The notes under the pieces: generated by a model
Seen by the model: the letters and a program-made list of their open reading frames with translations, nothing else
The model's database searches: none
Told to the model about the DNA's origin: nothing
Source: Tubulanus polymorphus
Taxonomy: Eukaryota; Animalia; Nemertea
Reading direction: 5' to 3'
DNA: 64,000 bases
Assembly: GCF_964204645.1 (NCBI RefSeq)
Contig: NC_134027.1
Coordinates: 25,010,560-25,074,559 of the forward strand
Translations under genes and position numbers: made by a program
Shown: positions 2,989-18,445 of the stretch, piece by piece
Layout of the letters: each line of letters opens with the position of its first letter
Position numbering within the stretch: position 1 is the stretch's first letter

Positions 2989-4066
2989 TTATTGATGTTT
3001 TATCGAAGCCCGCTTTTTGCAGCAAACGTTGCTTAAAATATCAATAGCTACTTTTCTAAATCTCTCATTTGTAGCGCAATACACGATAAAGTTTACTGAT
3101 GAATCAGTGATTGAAAATCCCATCGCCAGCTGATTCATAATGTTCAGAAAAGAGATGTAACCTAAAAGCATAAAACGTTCGATAAAACCAAAACCTTCAC
3201 AGAAAATAAACAACAAAACTACTGATAAAACCATCCTTAAAACCCTCATTTCCCTTCTAGACGATTCATCAGTTACACCGAGCTCTGAACGTCGAGTAAC
3301 CCGACGAACGAATATCGCCAAAATAAGTATAAGATTGATAACAAATAAAAGGCAAATTGGGATCATAACAGTAAGATACAACAATAGATAGATCCCAGAG
3401 ATTTTGCGCCAATTTTCGAGGGTAGACCACGCGGAGTAGTGATAAGACCTACCGATTACCATGATATATGGCCACTCAACAGGGCAATTAATGAATACCA
3501 GTTCATGCTCAGGTATGAAGCGAATAAAGTGGCCAAAAAGCCAAAAGTGAAATGAACACCATCGCGCATTGTGATATGAACTTCATCGGAATTTTACGAG
3601 ATTTCAGTGGAAGCAATACGACGATTAACCGCTCTAGACTGAGCAGTACAGTGCACCAGTTACGTGTCATCTGAGACACGTAGAAAAACGGCAAGGCGAC
3701 TGCGATGAAAATCTTACCGAAATTCCAATCATTCCATCGAAACACCATATCCCCTAAAACGGCGTAAACGTACGCAGTTCTCAGCGGATACAAAATAAAT
3801 GTAGTCATCATAAACGAAAGATCAGTTAAAGCCAGAATTTTGATGAGAAAATAATTATCAGATTTAAATCGTTTCAGAACTAACAACGTGAATGCGTTGA
3901 ATATAAAACCCAGTATTGTCGCCGGCAGATACCAGCCTAAGTATATTGATATGCAGAATTTGTTGATCCATTGAATTGGTGTAGTTTCTCTAAAAAAACA
4001 CCAGGTGATGAGTTGAGTTGTTGTCAATGTAGCAGCACTTGTACTAGTAAAGTTGTTATCAAACAT
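2989..4066 (-). pseudogene. GPCR copy 1 (rhodopsin-class, FMRFamide-receptor-like), single frameshift
   Basis: ORFs 3509..4150 and 2989..3462 join into one 7TM protein (MFDNNFT...SLERL...DSSVNFIVY). There is a 2-nt deletion at ~3535 (TTT TGT GGC in paralogs vs TTT T GGC). The ATG aligned with the paralogs is at 4066. Confidence 0.85.
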
Positions 4067-5413
4067 CTCATAAACTGTAAAACCGGACGCACAGAGCAGA
4101 CGGAAACACGTTTCAAACAGAAAACTCGACGATACTTGAAAATGACACAAAATCGCTCCACTAATCGCGTCAAATTGATGCGATACTCTAGATTATTTTT
4201 GTTTCGTGTTTGTGCACGTCTCCGCGCGCCCGATTTTAGTCTCCGAACGGACAGTTTGATTTGTTCTATTGCGTTGAGACAATGAATACGTGTTAATCCA
4301 CCGATACGGATACGTAATGTCAAAACGACTGAGTCGCGGTTTTGTCAATGCGGTACTGGTTCTATGGTATTATTGAACATACCATGAGCTGCGAACAGCA
4401 ATCTCTGTACATACAGTTTTGATACAAACATTTGCTAAAACGTCCAGTGAAAATAATTATCAAATTAAATTAGGTTTTGTATCTTTTCGCGTTGATTTGA
4501 TCAAATGAAATTTTGACTATTCAAATTTTACCACACGATGTTTCAGGTTTCATTATTTTACTGCATTTATATTCTATGAAAGACTGTGTGTAAATATTTC
4601 ACTTAGATTCGTGGTATGTATGCGAAAATAATGTAAATTCATGTTTCCTTATAAAACAAAACTAACATCCATGTATGAGATGAAACTATGTATATTTCAT
4701 TATTAGCAGTTTAACCTCCGAGAATTTGTTTGATAATTTAACATTTCACAAATAAGTATTTTAAAAATCTAAGAAATGTTGCCCATGTTGCATGTGTAGC
4801 CTGTATTGAAGGAAACGAAACATCATGATCGACAGATCGACACGGATAGACCGACACAATAAACTCAAGATATCGGTGGCCAATAGCATCTACAAAAGAT
4901 ATTTGTACATCTGTCTCTTCTGCACTGCCCCGCTTCAAATACAAATATTACGGTTTTTGGGATCTGAAAGTACGTTGAGGTGGAATTGGTCGCGTGGCAG
5001 GCCTGTAATATTCTAATCATCATTTTTAGGTGACCATCAAGCCTCCGTTAGATCGGGCTCAATGCGACACTCAATAACCAAGAGACCACTTTAGAATGTT
5101 CAAATGATATTGTTGTATTTTTCTGCGTGTACCAAGTCAGTACCAAATCAGTTTTTCATAAACGACAATAGGTGACTTTATGTGTTATGTGGTGAAAGCT
5201 CTCCGTGGACTTTTCTGTACACGAGATTTTTACAATGAAACAGTGACAGCAAGTAGTATATATGCATGAGCTCAATACGGTATTCAAATCGTCAATGTAT
5301 TGCAACAGCTCGAAAATAAAATGTTGGACTTCGGACGCCATCGTTTATAAACCGTTCTTGAATTGTTTGCCCATTGCGCCATGGTCTGTTTGTGGATAAT
5401 CTTATCCTGTGTT

Positions 5414-6498
5414 TTATTGTTTTCGTCCTATCGAAGCGTTCTGTTTGCAGCATACATTGCCTAAAATATCATGAGCTACTTTCCTGAATTTGCCATTTGT
5501 CGCGCAATACACGATAAAGTTTACTGACGAATCGACGATAGAAAATCTCAATGCTATTTGGTTCATAATGTCAAAAAATTGGATACAACCTAATCTCATT
5601 AAACGGTGGATGAAACCAAAACCTTCGCAAATAATAAACACATAACTACTGATAAGACCATCCTTAAAACCCGTATTTCCGTTCTAGACGATTCGTCGGT
5701 TATACCGAGCTCTGAACGTCGAGTAACCCGACGAACGAATATCACCAGAATAAGAAAAACATTGATAACAACTATGAGGCAAATTGGAATCATAGCGGTA
5801 AGATACATGAAAAAATAAATCTCAGAAATGTCGAAACGCCATCCATATTGTTCAAACCATCGGGGGTAGTTATAATACTTAACACGTATTGTAATATAAG
5901 GCCATTGAACAGGACAGTTCATAAATCCAAGTTTATTCTCAGGAATGAAGTGAATAAAATGGCCACAAAAAGTCAAAACTGAAATGGATGCCATCGCGCA
6001 TTGTGATATGAACTTCTTGGGGATTTTACGAGATTTCATTGGAAACGATACGACGATTAACCGCTCTAGACTGAGCAGTACAGTGCACCAGTTACGCGTC
6101 ATCTGAAACATGTAGAAAAACGGCAAGGCGACTGAGATGAAAATCCAACCAAATTTCCAGTCATTCCAGCGAAACACAATATCTCCTAAAATGGCGTAAA
6201 TGTACGCAGTTCTCAGGGGATAAAGAATGAATGTAGCGATCATAAACAAAAGATCGTTTATAGCGAGAATTTTGATGAGAAAATGATTATCAGATTTAAA
6301 CTGTTTTAGCACCAACAACGTGAATGCGTTAAATAGCATACCCAGTATAGACGCCGGTAGATACCAGCCTAAATATGTAAAAACACTGACTTTGTTGATC
6401 CATTTGACTGGGAGATGAATTTGAATTCTCTGACACAAGCTGGGTTGTTGCGACGTTGTCAATACAGGACTTGTGCTTGTAACGTTTTCATCGAGCAT
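5414..6498 (-). pseudogene. GPCR copy 2, single frameshift in TM6
   Basis: ORF 5599..6570 continues in ORF 5414..5641. There is a 1-nt deletion at ~5641 (GTT ATG TG TTT vs paralog GTT TTG TTG TTT). The ATG of MLDENVT is at 6498. Confidence 0.85.
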
Positions 6499-6676
6499 CC
6501 CACGATCTGTTAGTGACAAAATTACAGTCAAACCGTAGTATTCACGACACCTTTCAAAAAAGCGATCCAATTAGCGGTACTGAACGATCACGTTAGCGGT
6601 GCACGGTGTTATCGATTCTCATTAATTATTACATTTTTTTCTTAGATGCCGGTGAAAATGTAGTCACAGAGCCGCG

Positions 6677-6872
6677 TATATATATATATATATATATATA
6701 TATATATATATATATATATATATATATATATATATATATATATATATATATATATATATATATATATATATATATATATATATATATATATATATATATA
6801 TATATATATATATATATATATATATATATATATATATATATATATATATATATATATATATATATATATATA
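6677..6872. repeat. (TA)n microsatellite, ~195 bp
   Basis: Pure TA run, followed by a small duplication of ATCAAATCCAT. Confidence 0.99.
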
Positions 6873-17371: not shown

Positions 17372-17729
17372 CTCATAAGCTAGCAGCCACAACTTCTGTA
17401 TATCATTTTATTGTGCTTCTATTCTCCGTTCTATTTATTTCAACGTCCACAGTGATTCTAAATTCAATCAGGTTTTGTAGCATTCCATTCGTTGCCGCAG
17501 ATTCATTTCATAAAAATTAGATCCTATCACATCCTAAATTATATCCCATCTAATTATATCATTGAATCACATGAACTGCATAAACATTCTACGTAATAAT
17601 GTCCGCATTATGCGACGGATATTTGTAGCTATATCTATATTTTCCCTTTAAGACTTTGTATCTGAATATTTCACCTTGAATTCGTGTTAAATGGATGCGA
17701 AAATTGTAATGCATTCCTTTTTTAAAATT

Positions 17730-17922
17730 TCGTTTTAGAACTAACAGCGTGAATGCGTTGAATATTAAACCCAGTACCGACGCCAGTAGATACCAGCATA
17801 AATAGATTAAAGCAAACAATTTGTTGATCCGATTAATTTGGAGAGCGTGAATTGTCTGACACCAGTTGAGTTTAGTGGTTGTCAAATGCTGGAAATGCGG
17901 TAGTTACATTTACATCAAACAT
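17730..17922 (-). pseudogene. GPCR copy 8, 5' fragment (N-terminus plus TM1), copy-5-like
   Basis: MFDVNVTT..., an early 1-nt frameshift, then ...LGLIFNAFTLLVLKR, after which homology stops. The upstream flank 17930-18255 matches 12620-12945. Confidence 0.85.
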
Positions 17923-18378
17923 CCCACGATCTGCCGAACGATAATACACGAAGACACGAAAACGAATCCAATAATGACAATAGTGAAGTAAGATGGTGAT
18001 GGCGTTCGCTAGGTGTGTAATTAGTGTGGTTAATTGGATTATCGTTTAAATCCCTACAACGATATTCGTTTATTGGTATATATAAGATTTCCCATTTTAA
18101 TGATTACAATTTGTTCAGGTATCGTGCAAAATGTAGCAGTAAAGCCGCGTAGTACACGTATCATTAGATCACGTAATAATTTTGAGTTAGAATGTGTCAA
18201 ATTTTCTGTGACAAGGTGAGTACATGCGTTAGTAGCGTCCATAGTAGTTGTATGGTTAGGTATCTTAGTAGAAGTTTTAAAGGAAACTTGAAGTTCCAAG
18301 CCCGCCTAGGAAGACACAGATCCAACCTCCTAGAACAACTGAGTGCTGACATGAGATGCCACAATCGAGGTTAACCGA

Positions 18379-18445
18379 CACAGGTTGAGATGGCGTAAAT
18401 GCCATGGTCGAAATAGTAATGTTGTCGAATATCTCATAAACTGTT
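18379..18445 (-). pseudogene. GPCR copy 9, tiny N-terminal relic
   Basis: Translates VYE-I-FDNITISTMAFTPSQ, matching the N-termini of copies 1 and 3, with ATG mutated to ATA. Confidence 0.7.

What the first reader, a model, noticed from the sequence alone, without database searches (positions are those of the whole stretch)
4064..18445. Every receptor start is preceded by a positionally fixed 3' splice site: shared leader exon, trans-splicing or private UTR exons?
Seen: an AG lies exactly 8 nt before the ATG in copies 1, 2, 3, 5, 7, 8 and 9 (e.g. TTTTACAG|TTTATGAG-ATG, CTAACAG|ATCGTGGG-ATG), although the surrounding sequence has diverged. Copies 3, 6 and 7 have TACAG at exactly -24, and those three are the only intact copies. 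Inference: the receptors are acceptor-led cassettes. They could receive private 5' UTR exons, one common upstream leader (alternative terminal exons, allowing one-receptor choice from a single promoter), or a spliced leader.
Basis: partly seen in the sequence, partly recalled or inferred. Interest (0 to 1): 0.75.

Follow-up and report, generated by a model that had tools for sequence, protein, structure and literature searches.

The report
Inherited splice acceptor in GPCR array
A ribbon worm carries a head-to-tail row of look-alike sensory-type receptor genes that mostly share an AG eight bases before the start codon, likely one inherited splice site ending a 5' untranslated intron as in vertebrate smell-receptor genes, so it is probably ordinary, although an untested splice from the neighbouring fibronectin-domain gene would fit the reading frame.

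Summary
The coordinates are right: AG lies 8 nt before the start in copies 1, 2, 3, 5, 7, 8, 9 and TACAG at -24 in 3, 6, 7. A tenth, relic start at 4380 has both. The copies are tandem paralogues with three upstream types, so these are not independent hits; neutral coding sites stay as conserved about half the time. What supports an acceptor is that similarity between types starts at the AG (0.90, against 0.26 upstream). The link '-24 = intact' fails: the 1-2 nt frameshifts of copies 1, 2 and 5 are absent from contigs of other DNA runs. The genome is Tubulanus polymorphus. Nine distant paralogues are annotated as stand-alone receptors. Best reading: intronless class A GPCRs with a 5' UTR intron and their own ATG. 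No RNA covered the locus, so no splice was seen. New lead: an upstream same-strand FN3 gene ends an exon in a phase-1 donor that would join the -8 sites in frame, but it has its own likely last exon and copy 6 cannot fuse.

The parts
2989..4066 (-). GPCR copy 1; 2-nt deletion near 3534-3545 in the window, absent from a contig of run X1
4067..4076 (-). AG plus 8 nt before ATG of copy 1 (type C; best pyrimidine tract, 48 nt AG-free)
4345..4481 (-). Relic tenth start (ATG at 4380, 11 codons) with -8 CAG, -24 TACAG and type-A upstream motif at 4481-4468
5400..6508 (-). GPCR copy 2 with -8 AG (type B); 1-nt deletion near 5640, absent from contigs of runs X1 and X2; 3' end approximate
8014..9205 (-). 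GPCR copy 3, open 368 aa; -8 AAG, -24 TACAG, type-A motif 9205-9192
10060..10504 (-). GPCR copy 4, middle fragment; no 5' end, next to a (TA)n array at 10524-10675
11543..12622 (-). GPCR copy 5 with -8 CAG (type B); 1-nt deletion near 12400, absent from contigs of runs X1 and X2
13010..14196 (-). GPCR copy 6, open 363 aa; -8 AG lost, in-frame TAG at -6, AG at -3, -24 TACAG, type-A motif 14196-14182
14572..16147 (-). Partial duplicate of the FN3 gene's 3' end (matches 18939-20814): last FN3 exon split by an insertion at about 15449-15775, donor kept at 15375, terminal-exon acceptor changed to TG
16316..17479 (-). GPCR copy 7, open 351 aa; -8 TAG, -24 TACAG, type-A motif 17479-17466
17721..17932 (-). 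GPCR copy 8, 5' fragment with -8 CAG (type B), early stop in the window
18377..18458 (-). GPCR copy 9, start fragment only, ATA for ATG, AG at -8 and -24
19147..19425 (-). Likely own last exon of the FN3 gene: T-rich phase-1 acceptor, 74 open codons with a 19-residue hydrophobic stretch, AATAAA at 19206 and 19152
20335..25433 (-). Seven exons of an L1/neuroglian-like FN3 gene (hydrophobic leader peptide, FN3 domains); last FN3 exon ends in a phase-1 donor AAG|GTAAGA at 20335

Best explanation
These are tandem-duplicated class A GPCR genes with an uninterrupted coding region, and the AG eight bases before the start is likely one inherited 3' splice site that ends a 5' untranslated intron, so each receptor would be translated from its own ATG behind a short cis-spliced non-coding leader. 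Shown: the array, purifying selection on six near-complete copies, the AG at the edge of the block shared by all upstream types. Inferred: that the AG is used, that the leader is non-coding, and that it is private or shared only between neighbours. Type-A copies (3, 6, 7) would use one of several AGs (-8, -24, about -54) behind a conserved CTRAT motif, which would let copy 6 lose the -8 site without harm. The receptors are likely chemosensory members of a lineage-specific expansion.
For: Identity between upstream types is 0.26 at -45..-13, 0.90 at the AG, 0.52 at -8..-1 and 0.60 at +1..+30. G at -3 in 9 of 9 starts and ATG in 8 of 9 (purine at -3 as Kozak context is recalled). dN/dS 0.21-0.42 in all 15 pairs of six copies. 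Copy 6 is under purifying selection on its own branch (20 synonymous, 12 non-synonymous changes; p 8e-6 against 1:3) though it has a stop two codons before its ATG, so its upstream bases cannot be coding. The 9 best hits of the representative search (E up to 1e-30) are 345-374 aa T. polymorphus proteins with a Met and an N-glycosylation sequon in the first 7 residues, like copies 3, 6, 7. Motif TACAAAA[C/G]CT[A/G]ATT occurs 4 times in 64 kb, always 74-97 nt before a type-A start. Mammalian OR genes have non-coding 5' exons followed by one ORF exon, and some share 5' exons with neighbours (10.1101/774612, passages). Tandem lineage-specific class A expansions are large in nemerteans (PMC11886862, abstract and passages).
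Against: No splice was observed; runs X1-X3 cover introns evenly and behave as DNA, X4 gave 1 and 0 laid contigs. AG retention is not beyond neutral expectation (p 0.45-0.54). T content of the 20 nt before the sites is 0.10-0.45 against 0.50-0.75 for 8 acceptors of the FN3 gene (two of the 8 were read 1-2 nt off). No donor is conserved between homologous upstream regions, and donors scoring 7 of 9 or more occur once per 800 nt anyway (22 in 17.7 kb). Only 388 nt lie between the stop of copy 6 and the AG of copy 5, with poly(A)-type signals at -190 and -163 and no good donor, which leaves little room for a private promoter, exon and intron. The paralogues' stand-alone starts are gene predictions, not protein data.
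Confidence: 0.45

Rival explanations
1. No splicing at these sites: each copy has a promoter 100-300 nt upstream and an unspliced 5' UTR, and the AG is kept by descent or gene conversion at the edge of the start-codon context.
For: Neutral-site control p 0.45-0.54; weak pyrimidine tracts, A-rich before the -24 site of copies 6 and 7; no upstream ATG within 150 nt of copies 5 and 8; loss of the -8 AG in a selected copy; a run of 15 codons without synonymous change hints at conversion.
Against: The shared block ends at an AG with fixed spacing in all three upstream types; copy 7 would carry 6 upstream ATGs in 150 nt and copies 1, 7, 9 an out-of-frame ATG at -5.
Confidence: 0.25
2. The receptor ORFs are alternative last exons of the upstream FN3 gene: the phase-1 donor at 20335 joins a -8 acceptor in frame and gives leader peptide + FN3 domains + 7TM receptor, a constant ectodomain on variable receptors.
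For: Same strand, 1.9 kb before the first start. 1 + 8 nt keeps the frame: joins run 371 codons in copy 3 and 354 in copy 7. Three of the changes in the 8 nt are synonymous in that frame (TAT/TAC, CGT/CGC, GGG/GGT; sequence). Out-of-frame ATG at -5 in copies 1, 7, 9 would then be harmless. The duplicated FN3 exon kept its donor at 15375 while its own next acceptor lost the AG. The RefSeq model XP_074645981.1 runs from the FN3 exons into part of copy 7.
Against: A frame match has a 1 in 3 prior. The FN3 gene has a closer, T-rich phase-1 acceptor at 19425 with 74 open codons, a hydrophobic tail and AATAAA. Copy 6 cannot be joined in frame, and all -24 joins stop within 4-11 codons. The RefSeq model enters copy 7 in mid-ORF, not at -8, and keeps only about 63 receptor residues. 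No full FN3-7TM protein came up: 1 hit among 2599 longer candidates, 0 of 17 FN3 hits with 7tm_1, and among the 150 listed representative hits the three other long ones that I read (624-675 aa) show no FN3-like part by eye. Non-synonymous changes and one stop also occur in the 8 nt.
Confidence: 0.13
3. One common non-coding leader exon upstream of the array is spliced to any one receptor exon, which would give one-receptor choice from a single promoter.
For: Gaps of 388, 340 and 445 nt before copies 5, 7 and 8, ATTAAA or AATAAA after 5 of 6 stops, no conserved private donor; a good donor CAG|GTGAGA at 18724 lies before the first start. Shared 5' exons exist among mammalian ORs.
Against: Types A and B each carry about 300 nt of inherited upstream sequence. 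The donor at 18724 is at chance frequency. Weak acceptors would have to compete with upstream poly(A) sites over 14 kb. In ants, array choice rests on one promoter per gene with readthrough (PMC12393541, abstract).
Confidence: 0.11
4. The array is a polycistronic unit resolved by spliced-leader trans-splicing at the -8 and -24 sites.
For: Acceptor close to the ATG and a poly(A) signal about 150 nt before the AG of copy 5 resemble operon spacing (nematode spacing recalled, not looked up).
Against: No report of spliced leaders in nemerteans came up in searches; trans-splicing is described as patchy (PMC12460157, passages) and absent from annelids (PMC7854359, passages). Most gaps in the array are 0.9-1.5 kb.
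Confidence: 0.05

Closest known systems
Mammalian olfactory receptor genes (10.1101/774612; passages read)
   Same: Clustered class A GPCRs, ORF in one exon, non-coding 5' exons spliced in front; some neighbours share 5' exons.
   Different: Unrelated receptor clade; the 5' exons are shown by RNA there and only inferred here; gaps here are 0.3-1.5 kb.
Lineage-specific class A GPCR expansions of lophotrochozoans (PMC11886862; abstract and passages read)
   Same: Tandem arrays with full-length, truncated and pseudogene members; large in nemerteans; Atlas look-alikes are 7tm_1/Srw clusters, mostly molluscan.
   Different: The passages read name Notospermus and Lineus, not Tubulanus, and do not treat 5' splice structure.
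T. polymorphus XP_074661564.1 ('daf-37-like') and eight further paralogues
   Same: Same family, 33-49% identical, same length and Met-sequon N-terminus.
   Different: Mostly on other contigs; their 5' exon structure could not be read.
Clustered protocadherin and UGT1A loci (recalled, no call)
   Same: Array of parallel exons joined to shared exons, as the FN3 or shared-leader rivals would need.
   Different: There the variable exons come first, each with a promoter; here they would be last. No such splice is shown here.
Ant odorant receptor tandem arrays (PMC12393541; abstract read)
   Same: Same-strand receptor array that poses the one-receptor question.
   Different: Insect ORs are not GPCRs (recalled); choice works by promoters, readthrough and antisense RNA, not by a shared leader.

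Membership tests
Class A (rhodopsin) GPCR | 7tm_1 domain above the Pfam cut-off | tested here: met
   Copies 3 and 7 score 36.8 and 35.9 bits (cut-off 30.5); copy 6 scores 30.3, just under; Atlas recognition 3436 with 7tm_1 clusters.
Lineage-specific tandem GPCR expansion | Tandem, closely related copies with relatives mainly in the same species | tested here: met
   About 80% DNA identity among copies; the 9 best representative hits are T. polymorphus.
Lineage-specific tandem GPCR expansion | Chemosensory expression or ligand | not testable with these tools
   No RNA coverage.
OR-type gene layout (5' UTR intron, one coding exon) | Coding region without introns | tested here: met
   Continuous ORFs of 368, 363 and 351 aa.
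OR-type gene layout (5' UTR intron, one coding exon) | Spliced non-coding 5' exon joined at the acceptor | tested here: inconclusive
   Similarity edge at the AG, but weak tracts, no conserved donor and no RNA.
Shared-exon cluster (alternative last exons) | One donor joined to several acceptors in RNA | not testable with these tools
   Only DNA-like runs hold the locus.
Shared-exon cluster (FN3-7TM fusion) | All working cassettes keep an in-frame acceptor | tested here: not met
   Copy 6 lacks the -8 AG and has an in-frame stop, yet is under purifying selection; met in 5 of 6 near-complete copies.
Shared-exon cluster (FN3-7TM fusion) | Upstream gene has no last exon of its own | tested here: not met
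   Candidate last exon at 19425-19147; predicted, not RNA-proven.
SL trans-spliced operon | Spliced-leader RNA gene and leader on mRNAs in this species | not testable with these tools
   No genome held, no RNA; literature searches listed no nemertean case.

The most novel reading that the evidence does not exclude
The receptor ORFs are alternative last exons of the neuroglian-derived FN3 gene: splicing from 20335 to any -8 acceptor builds rhodopsin-type GPCRs with one shared FN3 ectodomain and a choice of 7TM bodies, while splicing to 19425 gives the FN3 protein alone; a protocadherin-type locus in reverse that couples adhesion domains to receptor choice.
Probability: 0.13. Interest if true: 0.85.

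Novelty: new member of a known kind. Interest (0 to 1): 0.3.

Why it matters
On the best reading it is an unannotated, ordinary receptor array: at least six copies look functional once small assembly or allele deletions are set aside, and the RefSeq model XP_074645981.1 that runs through it is likely a mis-join. If the FN3 donor or one common leader is really spliced to the cassettes, it would be a splice-based way to choose or build chemoreceptors, not found in my searches, and one RT-PCR would show it.

Tried and rejected
No whole genome is held, so paralogues elsewhere could not be read for their acceptors. No RNA holder was listed; X4 gave 1 and 0 laid contigs: no evidence on expression. 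Summed contig depth over the receptors is high but is no copy number; I draw no genome-wide count from it. The word-index search for same-length homologues found none among 2379 candidates, though the HMMER search found 437. '-24 TACAG marks intact copies': rejected (relic has it). 'Seven independent AGs': rejected. Coding constraint on the 8 nt: too few changes to test; several are C/T changes beside a G. The region 19425-19250 as a CpG promoter: its CpG level equals that of the FN3 coding exons, so exon is the simpler reading. Solved structures gave only weak opioid, adrenergic and S1P receptor matches (best E 2e-5). One search for OR acceptor papers gave one irrelevant paper; PMC12582326 held none of 6 terms. 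Earlier findings: none near, none by words, six elsewhere in the genome with no bearing. No supplements were opened; those of 10.1101/774612 (closed) and PMC11886862 may bear on OR acceptor spacing and on nemertean arrays.
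Full report
What is there. The - strand from 2989 to 18458 holds nine copies of one receptor gene: six near-complete (1, 2, 3, 5, 6, 7), a middle fragment (4) and two 5' fragments (8, 9). Copies 3 and 7 pass the Pfam 7tm_1 cut-off and copy 6 misses it by 0.2 bits. The coding regions are about 80% identical in DNA and have dN/dS 0.21-0.42 in all 15 pairs. A RefSeq protein of Tubulanus polymorphus, XP_074645981.1, matches the neighbouring exons letter for letter within exon bounds, which names the species. 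The 9 hits with E up to 1e-30 among 437 representative hits are all T. polymorphus proteins of 345-374 aa. This fits the tandem, lineage-specific class A expansions described for nemerteans (PMC11886862, abstract and passages).

The observation. Copy 6 has AT in place of the -8 AG, an in-frame TAG at -6 and a new AG at -3; copy 9 starts with ATA; copy 4 has no start. A profile of the starts found a tenth, relic start at 4380 with both TACAG at -24 and CAG at -8 (E 0.0016; the next hit E 1.7). So the -8 AG stands in 8 of 9 starts and TACAG at -24 in 4 of 9.

Is it more than chance? The copies are relatives. Their upstream regions fall into three types (A: 3, 6, 7, relic; B: 2, 5, 8; C: 1, 9; my grouping). 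Pairs 6/7 and 5/8 align over about 300 nt. In the six near-complete copies, 38 of 71 four-fold sites are invariant and 17 differ in one copy, so two neutral sites match the AG's conservation with p 0.54, or 0.45 without two very conserved blocks. The AG alone is therefore weak evidence. The better evidence is the edge: identity between types is 0.26 at -45..-13, 0.35 at -12..-11, 0.90 at the AG, 0.52 at -8..-1 and 0.60 in the first ten codons. A shared block that begins at an AG with no indel down to the ATG is what an exon edge looks like. Against it, the 20 nt before these sites hold 10-45% T, against 50-75% at 8 acceptors of the neighbouring gene (two of those were read 1-2 nt off), and the -24 sites of copies 6 and 7 are A-rich.

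The '-24 = intact' link. Copies 1, 2 and 5 each have a single 2-, 1- and 1-nt deletion and no in-frame stop in the first 350 codons (copy 2 also has a 2-nt gap in its last codons). A 351-nt contig of run X1 has the 2 nt in copy 1, contigs of X1 and X2 have the extra base in copy 2, and contigs of X1 and X2 have it in copy 5. These runs are one study and behave as DNA. The lesions are thus assembly errors or alleles, and copies without the -24 site are likely intact too. The relic has the -24 site and no body. TACAG at -24 simply marks type A, as does a motif TACAAAA[C/G]CT[A/G]ATT found 4 times in the window, 74-97 nt before type-A starts. Its CTRAT core looks like a branch point (consensus recalled), but other AGs lie between it and -24, so it may also be a promoter element.

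What could be joined. No RNA covered the locus, so this is inference. No donor is conserved among homologous upstream regions; donors scoring at least 7 of 9 occur 22 times in 17.7 kb. The gap before copy 5 is 388 nt and holds the poly(A)-type signals of copy 6 at -190 and -163, which is tight for a private promoter, exon and intron; copies 5 and 8 also have no ATG in 150 nt upstream, so type B could be unspliced. Own-ATG initiation is supported by G at -3 in 9 of 9 starts, by a sequon at residue 5 as in the 9 distant paralogues (sequon within the first 7 residues in 9 of 9), and by copy 6, which has a stop just before its ATG and still shows 20 synonymous against 12 non-synonymous changes on its own branch. 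The loss in copy 6 could be recent; I cannot date it. Mammalian OR genes have this layout and sometimes share 5' exons with neighbours (10.1101/774612, passages).

Upstream on the same strand lies an L1/neuroglian-like gene with a hydrophobic leader and FN3 domains. Its last FN3 exon ends in a phase-1 donor at 20335. One base plus 8 nt keeps the frame into every -8 cassette (371 codons for copy 3, 354 for copy 7), while -24 joins stop within 4-11 codons. Part of this gene's 3' end was duplicated into the array (14572-16147), keeping the donor at 15375 and losing the next acceptor's AG. However, the gene has a nearer T-rich acceptor at 19425 with 74 open codons, a 19-residue hydrophobic stretch (mean hydropathy 2.06) and AATAAA at 19206 and 19152; a contig of X2 covers it without differences. 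The RefSeq model uses that exon and then enters copy 7 in mid-ORF, not at -8, which looks like a prediction error. Searches found no full FN3-7TM protein and no paper on one in the listing of one search. I give this 0.13.

Trans-splicing. Searches listed no nemertean case. The passages read call trans-splicing patchy (PMC12460157) and absent from annelids (PMC7854359); passages of PMC2481426 did not settle nemerteans. It is untested here and has a low prior. For array choice, the ant paper's abstract describes per-gene promoters with readthrough and antisense RNA (PMC12393541).

Verdict. Observation partly confirmed; likely an inherited UTR acceptor in an ordinary receptor array (0.45), against unspliced 5' ends (0.25), FN3 fusion (0.13), one common leader (0.11) and trans-splicing (0.05). 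New member of a known kind; interest 0.3. Protocadherin, UGT1A, Kozak, branch-point and operon-spacing comparisons are recalled and come from no call. Earlier scan notes had no bearing.

Noticed in passing
window, codons about 131-146 of copies 1, 2, 3, 5, 6, 7 (for example 8690-8730, - strand): A run of 15 amino-acid-invariant codons with no synonymous change in six copies (permutation p 0.008): gene conversion or a DNA/RNA element inside the exon.
   Followed up: partly
window 4383 (- strand): The relic start contains a donor-like ATG|GTATGT 309 nt before copy 1's acceptor; the relic's type-A upstream region could serve copy 1.
   Followed up: no
window 15449-15775: An insertion splits the duplicated FN3 exon; very high contig depth and many loose ends at both edges mark a high-copy repeat.
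   Followed up: partly
window 10505-10695: (TA)76 array flanked by inverted ends (TGTACATTTCATTTTT-like) where copy 4 loses its 5' part; a second (TA)108 array at 6677-6892.
   Followed up: no
window 19147-25433 (- strand): An L1-like gene that appears to have FN3 domains only, with a leader peptide joined straight to the first FN3 and a short hydrophobic tail (possible membrane or GPI anchor); no close relative among 17 hits, best 26-29% to fish L1-like proteins.
   Followed up: partly
RefSeq XP_074645981.1 against window 1135-25415: The public gene model chains FN3 exons, a piece of GPCR copy 7 and an ORF at 1488-1135; likely a mis-join that hides the array from annotation.
   Followed up: partly
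window 54169-54651 (+ strand): ORF ending in a WW-like stretch that resembles a MAGI-type scaffold (name recalled; Pfam gave no family at E 0.001).
   Followed up: no
window 31231-32508 and 60252-60814: Long 12-nt and 32-nt tandem repeats that create spurious long ORFs.
   Followed up: no
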